This document shows positions 1-7,251 of a stretch of DNA of 10,075 nt, one piece after another; within the stretch, counting starts at the first letter, position 1, and each line of letters begins with the position of its first letter. The stretch is from a virus (taxonomy: Duplodnaviria > Heunggongvirae > Uroviricota > Caudoviricetes). The stretch lies in the IMG/VR virus record IMGVR_UViG_3300014890_000017; one strand, given 5' to 3'. Below the pieces are notes generated by a model, which did not search any database, was not told the DNA's origin, and saw nothing but the letters and a program-made list of their open reading frames with translations. A program made the translations under genes and the position numbers.

Positions 1-1251
1 GTGCTTACCGATACAAAATTAAAAAACCTCAAGCCGCAGGACAAACTGTACAAGGTCTCCGATCGTGACGGGCTGTATGTAGCTGTGCTTACGTCAGGAA
101 CGGTCTCGTTTCGCTATGACTACCGTATCAACGGTCGCCGCGAAACACTGGTAATCGGGCAGTATGGGCGTGACGGTATCAGTCTGGCAGAAGCGCGAGA
201 AGAACTGATTGCTGCAAAGAAGCTGCTTAAAGCAGGCCAGTCGCCGGCTGCGGCTAAACGTGACGGTATCAAAAAGATTCGTGGTGCCGAGACGTTTGCG
301 GTACATACCGACAGTTATATGAAACACGTCATCCTGGCTGACAGTACCCGCGCAATGAAGCAGTCGGTGATCGACCGTGACATACTTCCGGTTCTTGGCA
401 ACAAAATGATGGCTGAAATTACCACATCGATGGTTCGTGATTTGTGTGACCGGATTGTCGAACGCGGTGGCCGTGCAACAGCAGTACAGGCCAGGGAGAT
501 CATCAGCAGCGTATACCGTCACGCCAATGACCGTGGTCATGGTTTGTTTAATCCTGCGGCTGACATTAAACCTTCGTCTATCGCCATATTTAAACCACGA
601 GAGCGAACACTGACACCAGAAGAAATTGGCCTGTTCTTCCGCACGCTGGATGCCATTGGTGCAATGGGCACTATGAAAATGGCTTTAAAGCTGGTGCTTA
701 TCACTATGGTTCGTAAAGGTGAATTCACCAATGCAACGTGGGACGAAATAGATTTTAAAAAATGGACATGGACAATTCCTTCAGACCGCATGAAGGGAAG
801 CCGGGCGCACGTTATTTACCTGCCTAAACAGGCACAGGATATATTGGTCGGGTTGCAGATGTGCGCTGGTGGAAGTGAATATCTGGTTCCTGGTCGTTAC
901 AACTTCCGGAAGCCATTATCTAATGCCGCGCTGAACTCTCTGATCGACAGAACGGTGAAAATAATAAATGAAGATGGTGAGCATATTCAGGACTTCACCG
1001 TACACGATATGCGCCGTACAGCCAGTACGTTGTTGCATGAGGCTGGTTATCCTTCAGACTGGATTGAAAAGGCTCTGGCACATGAGCAGAAAGGTGTGCG
1101 CGCCGTATATAACAAAGCGGAATACGCCAGACAGCGCGCCTACATGTTGCAGCAGTGGGCCGATATGATTGATTCCTGGATTAACGGGGAGCATACGGAT
1201 CTGATTCCGTTCTCCCCGTCGAAGTTTGAGAAGTGGATGGCGGGGGAATAA
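1..1251 (+). CDS. int: Phage integrase, tyrosine recombinase (P4-like N-terminus)
   Basis: 416-aa ORF opening with GTG at position 1 (true start may lie at or just upstream of the window edge). N-terminus LTDTKLKNLKP...YKVSDRDGLY resembles P4-family integrase arm-binding domains; C-terminus has HDMRRTASTLL (His-x-x-Arg) and VRAVYNKAEY (tyrosine nucleophile). Stop TAA at 1249-1251. Confidence 0.9.
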   Translation: MLTDTKLKNLKPQDKLYKVSDRDGLYVAVLTSGTVSFRYDYRINGRRETLVIGQYGRDGISLAEAREELIAAKKLLKAGQSPAAAKRDGIKKIRGAETFAVHTDSYMKHVILADSTRAMKQSVIDRDILPVLGNKMMAEITTSMVRDLCDRIVERGGRATAVQAREIISSVYRHANDRGHGLFNPAADIKPSSIAIFKPRERTLTPEEIGLFFRTLDAIGAMGTMKMALKLVLITMVRKGEFTNATWDEIDFKKWTWTIPSDRMKGSRAHVIYLPKQAQDILVGLQMCAGGSEYLVPGRYNFRKPLSNAALNSLIDRTVKIINEDGEHIQDFTVHDMRRTASTLLHEAGYPSDWIEKALAHEQKGVRAVYNKAEYARQRAYMLQQWADMIDSWINGEHTDLIPFSPSKFEKWMAGE

Positions 1252-1254
1252 CGT

Positions 1255-1449
1255 TTAATTATTCTGCTGATTTTCTTCCATCTCGGCTTCTGCTGCCAGT
1301 GATTCAATTTTGTCTGCGAATATTGCTGACAGCGTTGCAAATTCAGCATCAGTGACAGCGGGAATGGGAACAAACCTGATCCCGCTGTGTGCAAGCATGT
1401 TTGCAGTTTCAAGGCATTTCCTTAAATCTGCTGGTGATGCCCGGTTCAT
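1255..1449 (-). CDS. Hypothetical small acidic protein (64 aa), translationally coupled to the methyltransferase
   Basis: Internal ATG (MNRASPADL...) of the 1255..1569 ORF; forms an ATGA start/stop overlap with the upstream methyltransferase stop at 1446-1448. Acidic C-terminus (AEAEMEENQQNN). Ends 3 bp from the convergent integrase stop. No family recognised. Confidence 0.45.
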   Translation of the reverse strand: MNRASPADLRKCLETANMLAHSGIRFVPIPAVTDAEFATLSAIFADKIESLAAEAEMEENQQNN

Positions 1450-2096
1450 GCTGCACGCTCCCGCCCCTGGTTGTCTGTTGGTGACAGCGGAGCATTGCTG
1501 AATGCATTTGTTAATCTGGCAATATCCAACGCGTATCCAGGGTGTAGTTGCACTGCCGGGTCTTCGCACTGATTACCCCAAACATCGAAGCCATGAGACG
1601 ACTGGCGGGCGAACAGTTCAATGCGAGAAACATCGCCTAACAATTGCACAAGTTTTTCACGAGCGATATCTGGCTTTCTTGAATGCTCAAGCCGCGGTGC
1701 GGTAAATGACTGAACGATCCCTGCATTAATGCGCGTAGGTAGTTTTCCCTTTACCGCAAACAGGCAATCTTCACTATTGGCGCGAGTCATGTGCCCCATA
1801 CCCATAACCAGTTTATCTGGTTGTCGACTACCACATTTTATCCACGTGAAGCCCTTCATCGTCATCAGACGAAATCCCCAGGCTTCAACAACTTTTAGTG
1901 CTTCGAGTGGTTGTGTTGGCACCCACCACATGGCCAACAGACAGTTTTCATCGGCCAAATCCCACACAGGAAGGCGGCAGATATCCAGCACACTCATAAC
2001 CGGATATTTAAAACCGGCACCGCGATTACCATCTGCGGCTTTGTCCCGGTATACCCAGGGTGGATCTGCATAGATTAGTGTGTATTTCTTAGTCAT
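1446..2096 (-). CDS. MT-A70-family DNA N6-adenine methyltransferase (phage orphan methylase)
   Basis: Conserved DPPW motif (LIYADPPWVY) near the N-terminus, typical of MT-A70/beta-class adenine MTases. ATG at 2096 (MTKKYTLIYADPPW) preferred over the ORF-track GTG at 2108. No adjacent restriction endonuclease gene. Confidence 0.8.
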   Translation of the reverse strand: MTKKYTLIYADPPWVYRDKAADGNRGAGFKYPVMSVLDICRLPVWDLADENCLLAMWWVPTQPLEALKVVEAWGFRLMTMKGFTWIKCGSRQPDKLVMGMGHMTRANSEDCLFAVKGKLPTRINAGIVQSFTAPRLEHSRKPDIAREKLVQLLGDVSRIELFARQSSHGFDVWGNQCEDPAVQLHPGYALDIARLTNAFSNAPLSPTDNQGRERAA

Positions 2097-2388
2097 AAAC
2101 CACCCCACAACATCCTATGCCGCTATAGTCGCCACGGCGAAGGCCGTTACCTTTTGTGATACATTGGTCCCTGCGAACCGCGATCCTTGCACGCTCAACA
2201 TCACCAGAAGCAACATCCATACACTGAAGCCAAAGGTGGGCGGCAATGCGGAACTGCCCTTTTTTCTCTCTTTCAATCGCGCGTTTTTCGATCTCTATCG
2301 CCGCAGGAGTAACGGCAACAACCTTTGAAGGGCTGCGCATTGAAACCTTGTTCATGTGATATTTTTCAAGTCGGCTTAACTTTCTCAC
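2089..2388 (-). CDS. Hypothetical protein (99 aa), coupled to the downstream methyltransferase
   Basis: GTG start at 2388 preceded by GAGGG about 9 nt upstream; stop TAA at 2089-2091 overlaps the methyltransferase ATG (ATGACTAA arrangement). No family recognised. Confidence 0.45.
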   Translation of the reverse strand: MRKLSRLEKYHMNKVSMRSPSKVVAVTPAAIEIEKRAIEREKKGQFRIAAHLWLQCMDVASGDVERARIAVRRDQCITKGNGLRRGDYSGIGCCGVVYD

Positions 2389-2497
2389 TTAATCCAACCC
2401 TCTCTGAAAATTAATGCCAGCAGATAAAGCCATGCTGAAACAGAGGCCAGGAATAAGTACCATCCTGACCATTTGCTCCAGTGCCTTAGCAGCGCAC

Positions 2498-2746
2498 TCA
2501 TGCAGCGTTGCTCACAGGACGATATACACGTTGCTGAACAGGAGGCTTTTTACCCTGGAACTCTGCCGGGCTTGCTGCCTGACGTTCATCAAGCCAACGC
2601 TCAACTTCGTCACGGTTCCATGCGCAGCGTTTGTCAGTGATATACCAGCGTTTAGGAAATTCCCCTGCGCGCTCCATACGGTCGATAGTGCTCCATGACA
2701 GTGGCACCACCGCCAGGAGTTCCTTCTTACCTAATGCACCTTTCAT
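2498..2746 (-). CDS. AlpA/excisionase-family DNA-binding regulator (Xis-like winged helix)
   Basis: 82-aa ORF; LLAVVPLSWSTIDRMERAGEFPKRWYITDKRCAWNRDEVERWLDER matches the AlpA/TorI/Vis excisionase-type HTH pattern (S-x-S-T-I...G-x-FP...W...E-V-x-x-W). SD-like AGAGAGG upstream of ATG at 2746. Confidence 0.75.
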   Translation of the reverse strand: MKGALGKKELLAVVPLSWSTIDRMERAGEFPKRWYITDKRCAWNRDEVERWLDERQAASPAEFQGKKPPVQQRVYRPVSNAA

Positions 2747-2795: not shown

Positions 2796-3677
2796 TTACA
2801 TAGATGTTTCGTTTAATTCTTCCCGACGAACGCTGTAAACGTCGGTGGCTTTTGCCAGCAGCTCGTCATCATCTGAAAGTTTTTGTGCAATGTATTTGTA
2901 AGCCTTATCCAGTTCGGAGACAGTGCTGTAATTCATCGCTGCGCTGGTAAAGGCCATCAGCATTTCTTCTGGATCACGGCTATCCGCTTTACGCGTTTGC
3001 TCATCATGCTTTTTCGCTGGTTTAGCGTTGATCAGACTGTTCATTCCCGCAGCAGTAGTCGTTTGCGGAGTAATGTCTCGCTCAACGCGCGGTGCCGTTT
3101 CCTGTAATTCGTCTGGGGTGTAAACACCGAGAAGTACATCAGGAGCGTGCAGGCGAGCCCATCGTTTCGTGCAAAGATAGGCAAGTTGCTGGCGCGGATC
3201 CTGTTCCCACAATGGAGAGTTACGCACTCCGGCTTGCGCCATACTGATGGTAAGCTCACGGGGTTCTGCTTCTCCTTTAAGAACTGCTGACACAGTTACC
3301 GTCAGATTCGGTGATTTATCTGTTTTGCCGTTAACATTCGACCAGTCACCGCTCCAGCGATAATTCAGGCGTGTCGCTAGCAGGCTGGAAGAGGATACGA
3401 CCGCGTTTACCAACTGTGCTTCGTAGCCTAACGTTCCGTTTACCACATGCGTTTTCTGCGCCACGGCGAAAGGGTTCATTCCCCACTGTGCCGCCTGCAT
3501 GGTCACCGCCAGACAATCGGCAGGTTTGCCTTCAAGATGTTTCGGTACAGTCGCTTTGCTTTGTGACATCAACTCCGCGAAACGCACCAGTTGATTCATG
3601 CCCTCCGGGCTGAAGATTGCCGCAGCAGTACCTACAGTTGCGCCTGGTTGTGATGTGATTGCGATATCATTGCTCAT
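2796..3677 (-). CDS. RecT/Bet-family single-strand annealing recombinase
   Basis: 293 aa; segment AAQWGMNPFAVAQKTHVVNG resembles the lambda Bet / RecT core (Bet has QYGLNPW); lies immediately downstream of, and start-overlaps (ATGA), a PD-(D/E)XK exonuclease, the canonical exo-annealase pair. Confidence 0.75.
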   Translation of the reverse strand: MSNDIAITSQPGATVGTAAAIFSPEGMNQLVRFAELMSQSKATVPKHLEGKPADCLAVTMQAAQWGMNPFAVAQKTHVVNGTLGYEAQLVNAVVSSSSLLATRLNYRWSGDWSNVNGKTDKSPNLTVTVSAVLKGEAEPRELTISMAQAGVRNSPLWEQDPRQQLAYLCTKRWARLHAPDVLLGVYTPDELQETAPRVERDITPQTTTAAGMNSLINAKPAKKHDEQTRKADSRDPEEMLMAFTSAAMNYSTVSELDKAYKYIAQKLSDDDELLAKATDVYSVRREELNETSM

Positions 3678-4495
3678 ACGTACATATCCTGTTTACGTGC
3701 CCAGTCAGGGCGTTTAATAATTTCCACGCCGCCCCATTCATCATTGATGCGGCATTCGTGATAGGTATTCAGATCCCGGCGGAACAGAGCGTGCCCGGCA
3801 TCGACATCCGGCGCATCCAGCTCGAACACGCGTACCGGATACCGACCACAATCAATGCTTTCGCTCACGGCAAGAAAGAAAAAACCATGCGGCTGACCAG
3901 TAACCCTCATTGCGCCTTCGCGGTACATTGCGTCCTGCACGTGGTAGCGGAATTCCTCGATGTGGCGTGCAAAACGGTCCATATCTGCAACCTTTTTCAC
4001 GTCGACGATCACGTTGTGCTCGTTCAGCCATTTGTCTGGACGAATGCGGCACAACTCACCAGTCTCTTCATCGTTCCAGTACATTGATGCTTCGCAGTAA
4101 CCAGGTGCTTCCAGCATCCAGCGTGCCGCCGGGTGAGCCATTGCGCTATCACGCATCAGCTCCAGTTTCCGCCACTGCTCGGCATCAAGTACCGTAATCC
4201 CCATATCCGCTACATCACGAAGAAATGCCTCTTCGTCAGCTTTACCTTGTTTTGTCCGACGATCGAATTTCGGTGAAACGATGAAGCGTTTGTCAAACTC
4301 TCCAGGTTCCAGAAGCAGACAGTGCAGAGCAGTACCCATGTCCAGTGCAGACTTCTTCTCTTCGTCTTCTGGTGCTGCCTGAACCCATTTAAGAAGCGCC
4401 GGATTCTTGGCAACCATGTCCAGTTGCGACTTACTCACGCCGTCCCCGGCGTGGTAGTCTTCGTTGCTGATGTCGAAATAAATTCCCGGTTTCAT
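3674..4495 (-). CDS. PD-(D/E)XK exonuclease (exodeoxyribonuclease VIII / RecE-C-terminal-like)
   Basis: 273 aa; N-terminal YFDISNEDYHAGDGVSKSQL and catalytic-like RIRPDKW ... IVDVKKV motifs fit prophage exonuclease VIII-type PDDEXK nucleases; paired with the annealase. Confidence 0.75.
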   Translation of the reverse strand: MKPGIYFDISNEDYHAGDGVSKSQLDMVAKNPALLKWVQAAPEDEEKKSALDMGTALHCLLLEPGEFDKRFIVSPKFDRRTKQGKADEEAFLRDVADMGITVLDAEQWRKLELMRDSAMAHPAARWMLEAPGYCEASMYWNDEETGELCRIRPDKWLNEHNVIVDVKKVADMDRFARHIEEFRYHVQDAMYREGAMRVTGQPHGFFFLAVSESIDCGRYPVRVFELDAPDVDAGHALFRRDLNTYHECRINDEWGGVEIIKRPDWARKQDMYV

Positions 4496-4791
4496 GCCGC
4501 TTCCCTCTGCCCATCAATCCGATCCGCCAGATCCCAGCGGGCGATAATTGCCATTGCCTCGCGACGGTAGGCATCCATCAGTTCTTCGAACTCAGGGCTG
4601 TCTTTAGCAGCCTCCAGTACTTCCTGACGAACGCCTTTGCCTGTTACAACGTCGAAAGTTGAGGACAGTTGATGAAGTCGGATGCTCTCAATCAGTTCAA
4701 CTTGTCGGTCATATAGCTGTTCTGACAGGCGGTAGTCCTTATCGAATGCCAGCATGATTTTTTGAAGATTTTTCTGCTGATTAACGTTCAT
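4492..4791 (-). CDS. Hypothetical protein (about 100 aa), immediately upstream of and coupled to the exonuclease
   Basis: ATG at 4791 preceded by GGGAGGG; ATGA overlap with the exonuclease start at 4495. No family recognised; occupies the position of Gam-like host-nuclease inhibitors. Confidence 0.6.
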   Translation of the reverse strand: MNVNQQKNLQKIMLAFDKDYRLSEQLYDRQVELIESIRLHQLSSTFDVVTGKGVRQEVLEAAKDSPEFEELMDAYRREAMAIIARWDLADRIDGQREAA

Positions 4792-4793
4792 TA

Positions 4794-4946
4794 TCAGCCC
4801 TCCCATATCTCGTTATCGTTGGCCACATCGCGAGCTTCTTTGCTGACGAAAGCCCACTTAATGCCTTCCTGTAAGGTGCGGAACTTCCAGCTCATGAATC
4901 CGCATGCAGTAACGCAGTACCAACCGTTGATGATTTTCCACTGCAT
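4794..4946 (-). CDS. Small Trp-rich ORF (50 aa), first gene of the leftward operon
   Basis: Hand-translated, not in the ORF track because under 60 aa: MQWKIINGWYCVTACGFMSWKFRTLQEGIKWAFVSKEARDVANDNEIWEG. ATG at 4946 preceded by GAGGTAA about 7 nt upstream; stop TGA at 4794-4796, 2 nt before the next gene's ATG. Confidence 0.35.
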   Translation of the reverse strand: MQWKIINGWYCVTACGFMSWKFRTLQEGIKWAFVSKEARDVANDNEIWEG

Positions 4947-4965: not shown

Positions 4966-4980
4966 TTACCGTTGAGGTAA
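4966..4980. promoter_or_regulatory. Operator-like palindrome TTACC-GTTGA-GGTAA (leftward promoter, downstream site)
   Basis: Perfect 5+5+5 inverted repeat read from sequence; an extra TTACC half-site sits at 4953-4957. Confidence 0.6.
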
Positions 4981-5008
4981 TAATTATGCTTATTTGGTTT
5001 GGTGTCAA
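4980..5008 (-). promoter_or_regulatory. Candidate leftward early promoter (PL-like)
   Basis: Minus strand shows consensus -35 TTGACA (plus 5003-5008) followed by an A/T-rich -10 candidate (CATAAT/ATAATT/TAATTA, plus 4981-4988; spacer 14-16 nt, so exact -10 is uncertain). Flanked by operator palindromes on both sides. Confidence 0.45.
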
Positions 5009-5052: not shown

Positions 5053-5077
5053 AATAAAAAAGCCGCCATGAGGCGGC
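5053..5077 (-). terminator. Rho-independent terminator downstream of the repressor gene
   Basis: Stem GCCGCC / GGCGGC with loop ATGA (5062-5077); on the minus strand it is followed by TTTTTTATT (plus AATAAAAAA, 5053-5061). Confidence 0.6.
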
Positions 5078-5099
5078 TTACTTGCTGAAAACTATAGTT

Positions 5100-5684
5100 T
5101 TATTGTTTGCTTTTTTCGTTCTGGTTGATGACAAATTCAATGTAACTTTCGATCTTTGCTTTCTCTGTTTCAGGTAACAATGCGTAGCGCGAGCGGTCAT
5201 AGTTGATAGTTGCAGGGTCGTGCGGGTGAATCAGTAGTTCATATCCGTGACGCCCGAATGCAGATGCAACATTCTCCAGGGTGGAAATGGAAACGCTGAC
5301 CTCATTGTTTAACAGGCGGCTGATTGTCACCTGGGCTACGCCGGATGCGCGGTGAAGTTTTCCCTGTGTTGAAAGGTCGCGGCTTTCGCTCATCCAGCGT
5401 TCCAGGTTGTGAGCCGCCAGCTGACCAATGTCGCTTGGTCCGACAGGCTGAAAACCCTCCTGAGAAAGCGAGCGATCGATATCAAGCCAGTTACGTGGTT
5501 TATTGGCGGCAGCTTCAATTTTTCGTGCAACCTGGTCGCCGATAACCTTCTTGCCAAGAGCCCAGCGGTTTACCAGATTTGCCTGAGTTCCAAGTTTTTC
5601 TGCCATCCGCGTCTGAACACCATTGAATTCACGGTCGATCAAGTCGTTGAGATTTTGCCTGCGGACGTCCTGGATACTTTTCAT
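5100..5684 (-). CDS. Prophage repressor candidate with two tandem XRE-type HTH domains (CI-like by position)
   Basis: 194 aa; HTH-like segments NGVQTRMAEKLGTQANLVNRWALGKK and LHRASGVAQVTISRLLNNEVSVSISTLENVASAFG; divergent from a Cro-like gene across an operator-rich intergenic region; no LexA/S24 peptidase-like motif recognised. Confidence 0.7.
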   Translation of the reverse strand: MKSIQDVRRQNLNDLIDREFNGVQTRMAEKLGTQANLVNRWALGKKVIGDQVARKIEAAANKPRNWLDIDRSLSQEGFQPVGPSDIGQLAAHNLERWMSESRDLSTQGKLHRASGVAQVTISRLLNNEVSVSISTLENVASAFGRHGYELLIHPHDPATINYDRSRYALLPETEKAKIESYIEFVINQNEKSKQ

Positions 5685-6435: not shown

Positions 6436-7251
6436 ATGAGCAGACATGCAACAGATTGGGCCTGGGAGACAGATCCAGGTAGCTCGTCATTAAAGCTCAT
6501 ACTGCTCTCGATGGCTGACAGAGCCGATGAATATAACCTCTGCTACCCCAGCATAGAACGCCTCGTTAAAGACACTTGCCTGAATAAAAAAACCGTGCAG
6601 GCCGGGCTTATATCGCTCATGAAAATGGGGCTTATTTCAGATACCGGAGAGAGAAAGGGAGCGACGAAAAGAGTGCGGGTTTTCTCTCTTAATATAACCA
6701 AAAACGGGAACATTAAAGGCAACCGGGAAGGGGGTAATGGACCCGAAAACGGTAATGTTACCGAAAACGGGAATATACCCAAAAACGGGATGTTGAATGA
6801 TCCCAAAAACGGGATGTTGAATGATCCCAAAAACGGGATCCAGAACCAGTCATATAACCAGTCATTTAACCAAGAGAGGGAGAGCAGGACAAAAAGCGGG
6901 GATTCTGTGCCTCATGACCCCGGCGCAAACAACGCCGTGATGAATAACTTTGTTCCTCCTGGTGGGCCAGGGCAATTAGGCAAATTTGTCATGCATGAAC
7001 AATGGCAGCCATCAGATGACTTTCTTCGGAAAAGCTCATTGCAGGGGATCTACCTGGACAGTCTGCCAACGGCACAGGAACTTGCAGAGTTCAGAATTTA
7101 CTGGATGGCTGAGGGTAAGGCATACCATCAGGCACAGTGGGAGCAGAAGCTGGCAAGGCGGCTGCAGATTAGCAGACAGAAGCAATCAACATTACCTGAT
7201 AACAACGTTCCGCACTGGAACAGCCCTGAAGCATGGGAGGATTTCTTGTGA
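6436..7251 (+). CDS. Replication initiator, lambda O-like (N-terminal HTH, internal ori iterons, DnaT-like C-terminus)
   Basis: 271 aa; GGAG SD 7 nt upstream of the ATG; N-terminal HTH-like region (SLKLILLSMADRADEYNLCYPSIERLVKDTCLNKKTVQAGL); low-complexity NG-rich linker encoded by a DNA direct-repeat array; immediately precedes and overlaps (GTGA) a lambda-P homologue. Confidence 0.75.
   Translation: MSRHATDWAWETDPGSSSLKLILLSMADRADEYNLCYPSIERLVKDTCLNKKTVQAGLISLMKMGLISDTGERKGATKRVRVFSLNITKNGNIKGNREGGNGPENGNVTENGNIPKNGMLNDPKNGMLNDPKNGIQNQSYNQSFNQERESRTKSGDSVPHDPGANNAVMNNFVPPGGPGQLGKFVMHEQWQPSDDFLRKSSLQGIYLDSLPTAQELAEFRIYWMAEGKAYHQAQWEQKLARRLQISRQKQSTLPDNNVPHWNSPEAWEDFL
6696..6850. repeat. Iteron array (putative origin of replication) inside the O-like gene
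   Basis: Six copies of the core AAAACGG(G/T)A at 6701, 6746, 6764, 6782, 6806 and 6830, including two perfect tandem 24-bp repeats CCCAAAAACGGGATGTTGAATGAT (6778-6801 and 6802-6825). Confidence 0.7.

What the first reader, a model, noticed from the sequence alone, without database searches (positions are those of the whole stretch)
1255..2388. Orphan MT-A70 methyltransferase coupled to two unknown small proteins
The DPPW-motif methyltransferase has no cognate restriction enzyme nearby and is translationally coupled on both sides: an ATGACTAA overlap with a 99-aa upstream protein and an ATGA overlap with a 64-aa acidic downstream protein. Orphan phage adenine methylases commonly protect phage DNA from host restriction; the roles of the two coupled partners (specificity, regulation, or a separate anti-defence function) are unknown.
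Basis: partly seen in the sequence, partly recalled or inferred. Interest (0 to 1): 0.5.

Follow-up and report, generated by a model that had tools for sequence, protein, structure and literature searches.

The report
Known phiV10 prophage methylase gene trio
The three overlapping genes are real, but they are an already catalogued piece of the common E. coli prophage phiV10: a PerC-type regulator, an orphan adenine methylase whose close relative has been studied in Shiga-toxin phages, and a copy of phage lambda's Orf63. The tight gene overlaps are normal for this operon and do not mark a special three-part machine.

Summary
Three minus-strand ORFs occupy 1255-2388: 99 aa, 216 aa with a DPPW motif, and 64 aa. 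They are joined by an ATGACTAA overlap and an ATGA overlap.

- **Flanking proteins.** They are not unknown. The upstream one is a PerC-family protein (PF06069). The downstream one is a homologue of lambda Orf63 (DUF1382, solved structure 8DSB).
- **Origin.** The stretch is 98.6% identical to phage phiV10 genes p34-p33-p32 and occurs in 561 of 5426 complete E. coli genomes.
- **Methylase.** No restriction enzyme lies in the window, and none is annotated in phiV10, so it is an orphan. Residues 1-187 are 83% identical to the Stx2a-phage enzyme M.EcoPA8orf6770P/M.EcoGV. That enzyme is reported to methylate GATC when overproduced, and 16S rRNA when bound to its upstream partner PNB-2. PNB-2 is absent here.
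- **Coupling.** Overlaps are operon-wide (7 of 8 junctions), and the neighbours are swappable. At the same ATGA junction, 80 near-identical contigs carry DUF1382 (60), a NinI-type phosphatase (16) or an unrelated 82-aa gene (4).

Best reading: a mosaic early-left accessory segment with three largely independent functions. It is already known, and interest is low. The residual lead is that PerC or winged-helix proteins recur as coupled upstream neighbours of this methylase clade.

The parts
2089..2388 (-). PerC-family small protein, 99 aa from a GTG start. The model has four helices; the core three resemble MIT/TPR-like bundles. The conserved C-terminus is GVVYD.
   Evidence: Pfam PF06069 scores 6e-7, 30.1 bits against a cut-off of 22.6. 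PHROG 868 'transcriptional activator' scores 6.5e-62 over positions 1-99 of 99. The NCBIfam ANR model scores 23.6, below its cut-off of 32. In 51 homologues, 17 columns are invariant and the N-terminus is conserved. The AlphaFold2 model has pLDDT 76, and no PDB match is significant.
1446..2096 (-). Orphan MT-A70 family N6-adenine methyltransferase, 216 aa, with DPPW at residues 11-14. The C-terminal tail (about residues 188-216) is variable and ends in -RERAA.
   Evidence: Pfam PF05063 scores 6.5e-22 over positions 1-172 of 172. PHROG 359 scores 2.5e-120. PADLOC MTase_II scores 3e-77. Residues 1-187 are 156/187 identical to the phage PA8 enzyme, and the tails are unrelated. The AlphaFold2 model has pLDDT 80.6 and pTM 0.80. 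Foldseek finds METTL3 at 1.7e-13 (TM 0.66) and Tetrahymena MTA1 at 2.9e-12.
1255..1449 (-). Lambda Orf63 homologue (DUF1382), 64 aa, acidic
   Evidence: Pfam PF07131 scores 1.3e-30 over positions 1-60 of 60. PDB 8DSB (lambda Orf63) scores 5.8e-13 over residues 2-62. V27, I29, E36 and K47, which PMC10869804 highlights, are conserved.
2089..2096 (-). 8-nt overlap ATGACTAA: the methylase start lies inside the last codons and stop of the PerC gene
   Evidence: Read directly from the sequence. The same junction carries the start of other genes in relatives, such as DUF1317 (MTN...).
1446..1449 (-). 4-nt overlap ATGA: the DUF1382 start overlaps the methylase stop
   Evidence: Read directly from the sequence. 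Three alternative downstream genes start at this same ATGA in 80 near-identical contigs.
2385..2501 (-). 38-aa predicted membrane protein. It overlaps the PerC GTG start (GTGA) and the AlpA stop (ATGA).
   Evidence: Translation. It is annotated as a membrane protein in phiV10 (p35) and epsilon15 (gp32).
2498..2746 (-). AlpA/excisionase-like helix-turn-helix protein, 82 aa, ending in -SNAA
   Evidence: Pfam PF05930 scores 3.1e-5. PHROG 66 'excisionase and transcriptional regulator' scores 2e-16.
2796..4495 (-). Recombination pair: RecT (2796-3677) and a PD-(D/E)XK exonuclease (3674-4495), ATGA-coupled
   Evidence: Pfam RecT scores 1.3e-31 and DUF3799 scores 4.2e-22. The junction was read.
4492..4946 (-). 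The first two small genes of the operon, 50 aa and 104 aa. The 104-aa protein ends in -REAA.
   Evidence: ORF list. They correspond to phiV10 p39 and p38. Junctions were read.
4980..5008 (-). Promoter-like site (TTGACA, 17-nt spacer, AATTAT) that would drive the whole leftward operon down to 1255
   Evidence: No minus-strand terminator-like site was found between it and 1255. The position matches the repressor-operator region annotated in epsilon15. Promoter function is inferred.
5060..5684 (-). Repressor-like protein with two helix-turn-helix motifs (5100-5684) and its terminator-like hairpin (5079-5060)
   Evidence: Pfam HTH_3 scores 1.2e-9. Terminator-like site. phiV10 p40 and its annotated terminator are.
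1..1251 (+). Tyrosine integrase, convergent with the operon. Its stop lies 3 nt from the DUF1382 stop.
   Evidence: Pfam Phage_integrase scores 1.3e-19 and Arm-DNA-bind_3 scores 3.9e-20. In related genomes it sits next to guaA.

Best explanation
The region is the promoter-distal end of the early-left operon of a phiV10-like (Uetakevirus) prophage. This operon is the counterpart of lambda's exo-xis accessory region.

**Expression (inferred).** On infection or induction, one leftward transcript starts at the repressor-controlled promoter near 5008-4980. It runs through the recombination genes, the AlpA/excisionase-like gene, a 38-aa membrane protein, the PerC-family gene, the methylase and the Orf63 homologue. 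Overlapping stop and start codons let ribosomes pass from gene to gene. This is how the whole operon is packed and is not a mark of a dedicated complex.

**Function (inferred from homologues).** The three products most likely act largely independently.
- The PerC-family protein is a small helical protein-binding modulator of transcription.
- The MT-A70 enzyme is an orphan SAM-dependent N6-adenine methyltransferase. It most likely methylates DNA, probably GATC as reported for its 83%-identical relative M.EcoGV. That would keep replicating phage DNA fully methylated and protected.
- The Orf63 homologue promotes lytic development through a still unknown partner.

**Shown.** Gene identities, overlaps, mosaic neighbour exchange, and absence of a restriction enzyme and of PNB-2.

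**Inferred.** The promoter, the timing of expression, the substrate of the methylase and the independence of the three products.
For: **Identity and spread**
- The stretch is 98.6% identical in DNA to phiV10 and 100% identical to several E. coli chromosomes. It is present in 561 of 5426 complete genomes.

**Operon structure**
- 7 of 8 junctions overlap.
- A promoter-like site lies at 5008-4980, and no minus-strand terminator-like site was found down to 1255.
- epsilon15 has annotated repressor operators at the equivalent place.

**Mosaicism**
- In 80 contigs with 97-100% identical methylases, the gene downstream at the same ATGA is DUF1382 in 60, a NinI-type phosphatase in 16 and an unrelated 82-aa protein in 4. 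The gene upstream is PerC in 78 and a DGQHR protein in 2.
- Six Uetakeviruses keep PerC and the methylase but place 0-2 different genes between them.
- In nin-region contexts the same methylase clade sits between NinB-like and RusA-like genes, assigned from N-terminal sequence motifs only.
- DUF1382 is found in 372 phage records. In lambda, 933W and Stx1 phages it follows DUF1317, not a methylase.
- The long C-terminal tail of the methylase occurs with all neighbour types, so the tail and the partner do not co-vary.
- A natural deletion (P0239) fuses PerC to DUF1382 without the methylase.

**Orphan status**
- No nuclease of restriction type is in the window. None is annotated in phiV10.

**DNA as likely substrate**
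- M.EcoGV is listed as GATC-specific (PMC6602927 Table 3; PMC10810198).
- A DndB-like DGQHR protein is ATGA-coupled upstream of the methylase in SPN1S and in L004 and L017.
- By sequence, the best solved relatives are the Tetrahymena DNA 6mA enzyme chains at 1e-12, against METTL3 at 2e-5.
Against: - **No methylation data.** None exist for this protein or for phiV10.
- **The nearest studied homologue points away from DNA.** It showed only weak DNA activity in vitro, preferred 16S rRNA when bound to the product of its upstream, ATGA-coupled gene, and changed spontaneous induction rather than restriction sensitivity (PMC10810198).
- **All solved MT-A70 enzymes work in heteromeric complexes**. A partner for this one cannot be excluded.
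- **Recurrent neighbours.** The methylase-DUF1382 adjacency recurs in two unrelated phage groups, phiV10-like and Stx2a phages. PerC or winged-helix-PerC fusion proteins recur as coupled upstream neighbours in distant genera.
- **No sign of GATC selection.** GATC is neither depleted nor enriched in phiV10 (153 observed, 152 expected).
- **The promoter is only a consensus match.**
Confidence: 0.62

Rival explanations
1. **Two-subunit enzyme with PerC.** The methylase works only as a heteromer with the product of the gene translationally coupled upstream. Here that product is the PerC-family protein, which would take the role PNB-2 plays in Stx2a phage PA8. It would direct the enzyme to a specific substrate, possibly 16S rRNA, and so tune prophage induction rather than protect DNA.
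For: - In phage PA8 the 83%-identical methylase forms a 1:1 complex with the ATGA-coupled upstream protein PNB-2. It then prefers 16S rRNA (PMC10810198; layout).
- The upstream coupled neighbours of this clade repeat a small set of types.
  - Winged-helix proteins: PNB-2, and Tyrion gp30 (HTH_24, 2.8e-6).
  - PerC proteins: the window, L031, and L037 (PF06069, 7.8e-9).
  - Fusions of a sub-threshold MarR-like winged-helix N-terminus with a PerC domain: L026, L028 and L030.
- The PerC model is a helical MIT/TPR-like bundle, a typical peptide-binding module rather than a DNA binder, although no PDB match is significant.
- Solved MT-A70 enzymes are all heteromers.
- A natural in-frame PerC-methylase fusion exists in two assemblies (P0005).
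Against: - PerC and PNB-2 are unrelated in sequence. No PNB-2 is present in the window or in phiV10.
- In five other Uetakeviruses, and in variants of this prophage, other genes sit between PerC and the methylase. These include DUF1317, the DGQHR protein, and Tyrion gp31 and gp30.
- The methylase tail that Gong et al. suspect of docking PNB-2 does not co-vary with the upstream gene.
- Many clade members in nin regions have no PerC or winged-helix neighbour.
- The PerC C-terminus and the 8-nt junction are conserved whatever gene follows.
Confidence: 0.15
2. **Methylase plus Orf63 as a functional pair.** The Orf63/DUF1382 dimer would bind the C-terminal tail of the methylase in its helix-binding cleft. 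It would then regulate, stabilise or retarget the enzyme. On this view the pro-lytic effect of Orf63-type proteins in these phages runs through methylation.
For: - The methylase is followed directly by DUF1382 in phiV10-like prophages (60 of 80 contigs).
- The same is true in Stx2a phages such as PA8 and PA28, where the two genes overlap by 41 nt.
- Orf63 has a cleft that binds a short amphipathic helix, and its natural partner is unknown (PMC10869804).
- The methylase model has a short helix at residues 192-200, followed by a disordered end.
Against: - The same methylase with the same tail is followed by a NinI-type phosphatase or an unrelated 82-aa gene in 20 of 80 near-identical contigs. 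In BUCT554 nothing follows it.
- The PA8-type tail is unrelated in sequence yet also precedes DUF1382.
- Lambda, 933W and Stx1 phages carry DUF1382 with no MT-A70 next to it.
- Orf63 has its phenotype in lambda (PMC10869804). By my own recollection, not checked here, lambda encodes no methylase.
Confidence: 0.08
3. **Silent passenger.** The methylase is not expressed, or is non-functional, in this prophage, and the segment is drifting.
For: - Prophage-borne orphan methylases are often transcriptionally silent in lysogens (PMC4659465; PMC5778455).
- Deletion and fusion variants exist: P0003, P0005 and P0239.
- IS629 disrupts the homologue in phage PA2 (PMC10810198).
Against: - The ORF is intact.
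- 50 columns are invariant across 67 homologues, including P12 and W14 of the DPPW motif.
- The gene is kept in all six Uetakeviruses examined.
- It is 97-100% conserved in at least 80 independent contigs and in 537 genomes.
- Silence in the lysogen is expected for an early lytic gene and does not mean loss of function.
Confidence: 0.07

Closest known systems
Escherichia phage phiV10 (Uetakevirus) genes PhiV10p34, p33 and p32
   Same: 98.6% DNA identity over 1200-2800. The gene order is the same (AlpA, 38-aa membrane protein, PerC, methylase, DUF1382, convergent integrase). The 8-nt and 4-nt overlaps are the same. All three genes are already annotated with these families.
   Different: - phiV10 annotates the PerC gene from a later ATG (88 aa). 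Homologue conservation supports the 99-aa GTG form.
- phiV10 annotates the exonuclease and RecT as one fused 586-aa protein. In the window they are two ATGA-coupled genes.
M.EcoPA8orf6770P-PNB-2 holoenzyme of Stx2a phage PA8 (Gong, Chakraborty and Koudelka, PMC10810198), and M.EcoGV of E. coli O104:H4
   Same: - MT-A70 enzyme with a DPPW motif and 156/187 identical residues in the catalytic core.
- It lies close to the integrase.
- It is followed by a DUF1382 gene.
- It is preceded by an ATGA- or ATGACTAA-coupled small gene.
   Different: - The last 29 residues are unrelated.
- The upstream partner here is a 99-aa PerC-family protein, not the 143-aa winged-helix PNB-2. PNB-2 is absent from the window and from phiV10.
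- The host phage is a podovirus of a different genus, without Shiga toxin.
- No biochemical data exist for this variant.
Lambda exo-xis region and Orf63 (PDB 8DSB, PMC10869804)
   Same: - The 64-aa protein aligns to Orf63 over residues 2-62 (5.8e-13) with V27, I29, E36 and K47 conserved.
- It sits in an early, integrase-proximal accessory region of small, tightly packed genes.
   Different: - In lambda-type phages Orf63 follows DUF1317 (annotated in lambda-type records), and no MT-A70 is listed next to it in those records.
- Here it follows the methylase and is the last gene of the operon.
PerC of enteropathogenic E. coli, the Pch regulators of enterohaemorrhagic E. coli, and the ANR family
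   Same: It matches the Pfam PerC model above the curated cut-off over the conserved helical core. Like the pch genes, it is encoded on a prophage (PMC4764244, PMC6265319).
   Different: - It is a divergent subfamily (PHROG 868) with an extra conserved N-terminus and a conserved C-terminus...DYSGIGCxGVVYD.
- It scores below the NCBIfam ANR cut-off.
- No evidence shows that it regulates the LEE island or any host gene.
Eukaryotic MT-A70 complexes (METTL3-METTL14; Tetrahymena MTA1-MTA9-p1-p2)
   Same: Same catalytic fold and DPPW motif. Foldseek gives 1.7e-13 at TM 0.66 for METTL3 and 2.9e-12 for MTA1. Sequence search gives 1e-12 to MTA-type chains.
   Different: - 20-26% identity.
- No inactive paralogue partner is encoded nearby.
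- It is a single-domain protein of 216 aa.
- The fold match does not discriminate between a DNA and an RNA substrate.

Membership tests
MT-A70 methyltransferase family (PF05063) | Match to the family profile above the curated cut-off over the whole domain | tested here: met
   78.7 bits against a cut-off of 23.9. Residues 5-176 match profile positions 1-172 of 172.
MT-A70 methyltransferase family (PF05063) | Catalytic DPPW motif | tested here: met
   DPPW lies at residues 11-14. P12 and W14 are invariant, and D11 and P13 are at least 90% conserved, in 67 homologues.
MT-A70 methyltransferase family (PF05063) | MT-A70 catalytic fold | tested here: met
   The AlphaFold2 model has pTM 0.80. Foldseek finds METTL3 at 1.7e-13 (TM 0.66) and MTA1 at 2.9e-12.
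MT-A70 methyltransferase family (PF05063) | SAM-dependent N6-adenine methylation, and its substrate (DNA or RNA) | not testable with these tools
   This needs methylome sequencing or an enzyme assay.
M.EcoGV / M.EcoPA8orf6770P subgroup (Stx2a-phage MT-A70) | High identity over the catalytic core | tested here: met
   156 of 187 residues are identical to the phage PA8 protein. tblastn gives 83-84% identity to more than 100 Stx2a phages.
M.EcoGV / M.EcoPA8orf6770P subgroup (Stx2a-phage MT-A70) | The C-terminal region that Gong et al. link to holoenzyme formation | tested here: not met
   The last 29 residues (YALDIARLTNAFSNAPLSPTDNQGRERAA) are unrelated to the PA8 tail (IVKFLEKTNERKNDVDKGITS).
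M.EcoGV / M.EcoPA8orf6770P subgroup (Stx2a-phage MT-A70) | PNB-2 partner gene immediately upstream | tested here: not met
   tblastn of PNB-2 against the window and phiV10 gives nothing better than E = 6. The upstream gene is a PerC-family gene.
Type II restriction-modification system | A cognate restriction endonuclease encoded next to the methylase | tested here: not met
   No restriction-type nuclease domain was found in any window gene. None is annotated among the 55 phiV10 coding sequences. The methylase is therefore an orphan.
PerC family (PF06069) | Match to the family profile above the curated cut-off | tested here: met
   30.1 bits against a cut-off of 22.6, over residues 35-80.
PerC family (PF06069) | Transcriptional activation of target promoters (ler/LEE1 for PerC and Pch) | not testable with these tools
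The name comes from distant family members.
ANR (AraC negative regulator) family, NCBIfam NF033650 | Match above the curated cut-off | tested here: not met
   23.6 bits against a cut-off of 32.
Lambda Orf63 / DUF1382 (PF07131) | Full-length match to the family profile and to the solved Orf63 sequence | tested here: met
   105.7 bits over positions 1-60 of 60. PDB 8DSB scores 5.8e-13 over residues 2-62.
Lambda Orf63 / DUF1382 (PF07131) | Core and dimer-interface residues named in the structure paper (V27, I29, L44, E36, K47) | tested here: met
   V27, I29, E36 and K47 are identical. Position 44 is F instead of L (alignment; residues from PMC10869804).
Lambda Orf63 / DUF1382 (PF07131) | Pro-lytic developmental effect | not testable with these tools
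   This needs phage genetics.
phiV10-like (Uetakevirus) prophage early-left operon | Near-identity and shared gene order with phiV10 and epsilon15 | tested here: met
   98.6% identity to phiV10. Order from repressor to integrase is shared with epsilon15, SPN1S, Tyrion and BUCT554.

The most novel reading that the evidence does not exclude
PerC-family proteins, alone or fused to a winged-helix domain, would be accessory subunits of phage MT-A70 methyltransferases. On this reading the 99-aa protein binds the methylase and sets its substrate or activity, as the unrelated PNB-2 does in Stx2a phages and as METTL14 or p1/p2 do in eukaryotes. That would give the PerC family a biochemical role other than transcription activator. 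It would also make this prophage a natural PNB-2-free test case for the DNA-versus-rRNA dispute.

A side possibility is that the conserved C-terminal Ala-Ala of the methylase is an ssrA-like degradation signal that keeps the enzyme short-lived.
Probability: 0.12. Interest if true: 0.55.

Novelty: already known. Interest (0 to 1): 0.2.

Why it matters
As it stands, this is an ordinary, already annotated segment of a prophage carried by about one in ten sequenced E. coli strains. Its value is mainly as context.

- **A natural test case.** The methylase is a close relative of an enzyme whose substrate is disputed: GATC in DNA, or 16S rRNA with the partner PNB-2. That enzyme also affects spontaneous induction of Shiga-toxin phages. 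The phiV10 version has the same catalytic core but a different tail and a different upstream neighbour. A simple methylome and pull-down experiment on it would help settle how this phage methylase clade chooses its substrate.
- **A caution for genome scans.** Start-stop overlaps in phage early operons are not, on their own, evidence of a functional complex.

Tried and rejected
1. **Structure prediction of the natural PerC-methylase fusion P0005, to look for docking.** Three attempts to build a paired alignment failed. MAFFT laid the PerC homologues over the methylase body. I dropped the experiment and modelled the two proteins separately.
2. **Co-variation of the methylase C-terminal tail with the upstream or downstream gene.** None was found. 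The long tail occurs with PerC, DGQHR or winged-helix genes upstream, and with DUF1382, phosphatase, winged-helix or 82-aa genes downstream.
3. **PNB-1 or PNB-2 elsewhere in the window or in phiV10.** None was found.
4. **GATC over- or under-representation in phiV10.** None: 153 observed against 152 expected.
5. **Programmed frameshift from the PerC frame into the methylase frame at GGTTTATG.** I considered this because of fusion P0005. I rejected it because there is no recognisable slippery site or stall codon. The fusion is explained by a 1-nt deletion.
6. **Defence or anti-defence models (PADLOC) for the small proteins.** No hits.
7. **Fold search with the PerC model.** Only non-significant MIT/TPR-like matches were found, best E = 0.25.
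8. **The original M.EcoGV paper (Fang et al. 2012).** It is not held in the library. The GATC assignment is therefore cited second-hand from PMC10810198 and PMC6602927.
9. **The ST131 methylome paper.** It contains no MT-A70 data.
Full report

Yes. The ORF list and the sequence show three consecutive minus-strand genes.
- A 99-aa ORF from GTG 2388 to the stop at 2089.
- A 216-aa ORF from ATG 2096 to the stop at 1446, with YADPPW near its N-terminus.
- A 64-aa ORF from ATG 1449 to the stop at 1255.

The reverse complement of 2089-2108 reads GTG GGG TGG TTT ATG ACT AA. The methylase ATG therefore sits inside the last codons of the upstream gene (...V Y D stop), which gives the 8-nt overlap ATGACTAA. 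At the other end...CGT GCA GCA TGA contains the ATG of the 64-aa gene, which gives the 4-nt overlap ATGA. Both were confirmed.

The 64-aa protein has 10 acidic and 5 basic residues. Purine-rich Shine-Dalgarno-like runs precede both downstream starts.

All three ORFs are real genes by homology. For the 99-aa protein, 51 homologues conserve the first 16 residues (MxKLxRLEKYH...). This supports the GTG start over the shorter database calls of 83-88 aa.

**2. Where does it come from?**

The stretch 1200-2800 is 98.6% identical to Escherichia phage phiV10, a Uetakevirus and a relative of Salmonella phage epsilon15. It is 100% identical to several E. coli chromosomes. It is present in 561 of 5426 complete E. 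coli genomes.

In phiV10 and in RefSeq the three genes are already annotated. The labels are PerC family transcriptional regulator, MT-A70 family (DNA) methyltransferase and DUF1382 family protein.

The window holds the following.
- The integrase (1-1251, plus strand).
- The whole leftward early operon, converging on the integrase: two small genes, a PD-(D/E)XK exonuclease, RecT, an AlpA/excisionase-like protein, a 38-aa membrane protein, PerC, the methylase and DUF1382.
- The repressor, followed by the rightward replication genes.

A promoter-like site lies at 5008-4980, just after the repressor gene's terminator-like hairpin. No minus-strand terminator-like site follows it down to 1255. epsilon15 has annotated repressor operators at the equivalent place. 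A single early-left transcript under repressor control is therefore the likely mode of expression. This is inferred, not shown.

**3. What are the three proteins?**

*The methylase.*
- It matches Pfam MT-A70 over the whole model (6.5e-22) and PADLOC's Type II methylase model (3e-77).
- The AlphaFold2 model is good (pLDDT 80.6, pTM 0.80). Residues 192-200 form a short helix and the last 16 residues are disordered.
- The model superposes equally well on METTL3, an RNA m6A enzyme, and on Tetrahymena MTA1, a DNA 6mA enzyme. The fold therefore does not reveal the substrate.
- Residues 1-187 are 156/187 identical to the MT-A70 enzyme of Stx2a phage PA8. The last 29 residues are unrelated.

*What is published on the PA8 enzyme.* Gong, Chakraborty and Koudelka studied it as M.EcoPA8orf6770P (PMC10810198).
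- Alone it has weak activity on DNA.
- It forms a 1:1 complex with PNB-2, the product of the upstream ATGA-coupled gene.
- The complex prefers 16S rRNA.
- The gene raises spontaneous prophage induction and virulence.
- The same paper, and PMC6602927 (Table 3), report that the highly similar M.EcoGV methylates GATC when overproduced.
- The substrate of this clade is therefore disputed in the literature.

*The 64-aa protein.*
- It is a full-length DUF1382 (1.3e-30). It aligns to the solved structure of lambda Orf63 (8DSB, 5.8e-13) with V27, I29, E36 and K47 conserved.
- Orf63 is an early exo-xis-region protein and a dimer with a helix-binding cleft. It promotes lytic development, and its partner is unknown (PMC10869804).

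*The 99-aa protein.*
- It matches Pfam PerC above the curated cut-off and PHROG 868 over its full length. It scores below the NCBIfam ANR cut-off.
- Its model has four helices. The core resembles MIT/TPR-type three-helix bundles, with no significant PDB match.

**4. Is it a dedicated three-gene cassette?**

The evidence says no.

*Overlaps are the rule in this operon.* 7 of 8 junctions overlap by 4, 8 or 13 nt.

*The neighbours change while the junctions stay.*

| Position, in 80 contigs with 97-100% identical methylases | Gene | Contigs |
|---|---|---|
| Downstream, starting at the same ATGA | DUF1382 | 60 |
| Downstream, starting at the same ATGA | NinI-type Ser/Thr phosphatase | 16 |
| Downstream, starting at the same ATGA | unrelated 82-aa protein | 4 |
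| Upstream | PerC | 78 |
| Upstream | DndB-like DGQHR protein | 2 |

*Relatives place different genes between PerC and the methylase.*

| Phage | Gene order |
|---|---|
| epsilon15 | PerC, gp30, methylase, gp28 |
| SPN1S | PerC, DUF1317, DGQHR, methylase, 59-aa gene |
| BUCT554 | PerC, DUF1317, methylase, then nothing |
| Tyrion | PerC, gp31, winged-helix gp30, methylase, gp28 |
| Klebsiella prophage | PerC, DUF1317, methylase, two small genes |

*The junction is a module boundary.* The PerC C-terminus GVVYD and the sequence ATGACTAA are conserved whatever follows. The next gene always starts MT(K/N).

*DUF1382 does not need a methylase.* It is present in 372 phage records. In lambda, 933W, VT2-Sakai and Stx1 phages it follows DUF1317, not a methylase.

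*The methylase moves between operons.* In other Enterobacterales the same clade sits in nin-type regions between NinB-like and RusA-like genes, judged from N-terminal sequence motifs only.

*The tail does not track the neighbours.* The long methylase tail is found with every neighbour type.

*The methylase can be lost.* A natural deletion joins PerC to DUF1382 without it (P0239).

**5. Is it an orphan methylase?**

Yes.
- No restriction-type nuclease is found in the window.
- None is annotated among the 55 coding sequences of phiV10.

**6. Best explanation and rivals**

*Best explanation (0.62).* This is a mosaic early-left accessory segment, the phiV10-lineage counterpart of the lambda exo-xis region. 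Its three products act largely independently.
- For the methylase I commit to DNA N6-adenine methylation, probably at GATC, on replicating phage DNA.
- The reasons are the M.EcoGV report, the recurrent coupling of a DndB-like DNA-associated protein upstream, and the closer sequence relation to the ciliate DNA 6mA enzyme than to METTL3.
- This step is inferred and could be wrong.

*Rival: PerC as accessory subunit (0.15).* The PerC-family protein would stand in for PNB-2.
- Support comes from the PA8 precedent and from a pattern I did not expect.
- The coupled upstream neighbours of this clade are repeatedly one of three types: winged-helix proteins (PNB-2, Tyrion gp30), PerC proteins (window, L031, L037), or proteins that join a sub-threshold MarR-like winged-helix N-terminus to a PerC domain (L026, L028, L030).
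- Against it, the adjacency is broken in most relatives.

*Rival: methylase-Orf63 pair (0.08).* This rests on the adjacency recurring in phiV10-like and Stx2a phages. It is weakened by the gene swaps at the same junction.

*Rival: silent passenger (0.07).* This is unlikely given the strong conservation.

**7. Novelty and verdict**

- The sequence, the gene calls and the family names are all in public records. The nearest homologue of the methylase has a dedicated paper. I rate the finding as already known and of low interest (0.2).
- It remains useful as a natural variant, with the same core, a different tail and no PNB-2, for settling the DNA-versus-rRNA question.
- The most novel reading left open is PerC as an MT-A70 accessory subunit. 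I give it a probability of about 0.12.

**8. Things seen in passing**

- **C-terminal Ala-Ala.**
  - 51 of 106 methylase homologue clusters end in Ala-Ala, although their tails are otherwise diverged.
  - The penultimate Ala codon varies synonymously.
  - AA persists where the next gene does not overlap.
  - In phiV10 only 3 of 55 proteins end in AA, and all three are in this operon.
  - This fits an ssrA-like ClpXP degradation signal (own knowledge), or else a junction sequence preference.
- **Convergent integrase.** The operon converges on the integrase with 3 nt between the stop codons and no terminator-like site. Early-left transcription would therefore run antisense into int.
- **Origin-like repeats.** The DnaT-domain replication gene contains perfect 24-bp tandem repeats typical of an origin.

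Noticed in passing
window 1446-1460 (methylase C-terminus), also 2498-2510 (AlpA) and 4492-4504 (104-aa protein); L130 (phiV10): 51 of 106 methylase homologue clusters end in Ala-Ala, although the preceding 15-30 residues are highly diverged. The penultimate Ala codon varies (GCA, GCC or GCT). AA is kept even where the next gene does not overlap as ATGA (L015, L023, L036, L039). In phiV10 only 3 of 55 proteins end in AA, and all three lie in the early-left operon, each at a GCNGCATGA junction. The modelled tail is disordered. This could be an ssrA-like ClpXP degradation signal (own knowledge) or a junction sequence preference.
   Followed up: partly
L004 3391-4458; L131 (SPN1S) 1786-2781; L017: Some relatives carry a DGQHR (DndB-like, PADLOC DndB 2.1e-37) protein directly upstream of the MT-A70 gene and ATGA-coupled to it. 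This pairs a DNA-modification-associated protein with this methylase clade.
   Followed up: partly
L026, L028 and L030, immediately upstream of the methylase at about position 4001; L007 2284-2511: In Buttiauxella and Dryocola prophages the ATGA-coupled upstream gene encodes a 147-170 aa protein. A MarR-like winged-helix N-terminus (sub-threshold matches) is joined to a PerC domain (L028: PF06069, 25.5 bits, above the cut-off). Their downstream gene encodes a LexA-type DNA-binding domain. In phage Tyrion the upstream gene is a plain winged-helix protein.
   Followed up: partly
window 2089-2100, and PerC homologues P0121-P0218: The PerC-family C-terminus ...GVVYD, with the DNA sequence ATGACTAA, is almost invariant in 51 homologues. 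It always carries the start (MTK or MTN) of whichever gene follows, whether methylase or DUF1317. It behaves like a conserved module boundary for mosaic exchange.
   Followed up: partly
P0005 (L133 3001-3894), P0003, P0239, P0233: Several natural rearrangements occur at these junctions.
- P0005 is an in-frame PerC-methylase fusion caused by a 1-nt deletion in GGTTTATG, seen in two assemblies.
- P0003 is a deletion fusion.
- P0239 is a PerC-DUF1382 fusion that lacks the methylase.
- P0233 is a PerC-DUF1317 fusion.

   Followed up: partly
L003 1554-2213, and 16 of the loci L050-L129: In about 20% of near-identical prophages, DUF1382 is replaced by a NinI-type Ser/Thr phosphatase. In 5% it is replaced by an unrelated 82-aa protein (MKQIMVAHNG...). 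Both start at exactly the same ATGA.
   Followed up: yes
window 1249-1257: The integrase (plus strand) and the early-left operon (minus strand) converge, with only 3 nt between their stop codons and no terminator-like site. Early-left transcription would run antisense through int.
   Followed up: no
window 2796-4495 compared with phiV10 p37: phiV10 annotates one 586-aa RecE-RecT fusion protein. The window, epsilon15, Tyrion and RefSeq E. coli genomes have two ATGA-coupled genes instead: an exonuclease of 273 aa and a RecT of 293-313 aa. The phiV10 fusion call is probably a frameshift or an annotation artefact.
   Followed up: no
window 6733-6872, inside the 271-aa DnaT-domain replication gene (6436-7251): Tandem repeats of 18, 24 (2.6 perfect copies) and 12 bp encode an Asn/Gly/Pro-rich stretch. 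They look like origin iterons inside the initiator gene, as in lambda O.
   Followed up: no
window 2089-2388: Public annotations start the PerC gene at later ATGs (88 aa in phiV10, 83 aa in RefSeq). Conservation of the first 16 residues in homologues that start with ATG at the equivalent position supports the 99-aa GTG start. That start also makes a GTGA overlap with the 38-aa gene.
   Followed up: yes
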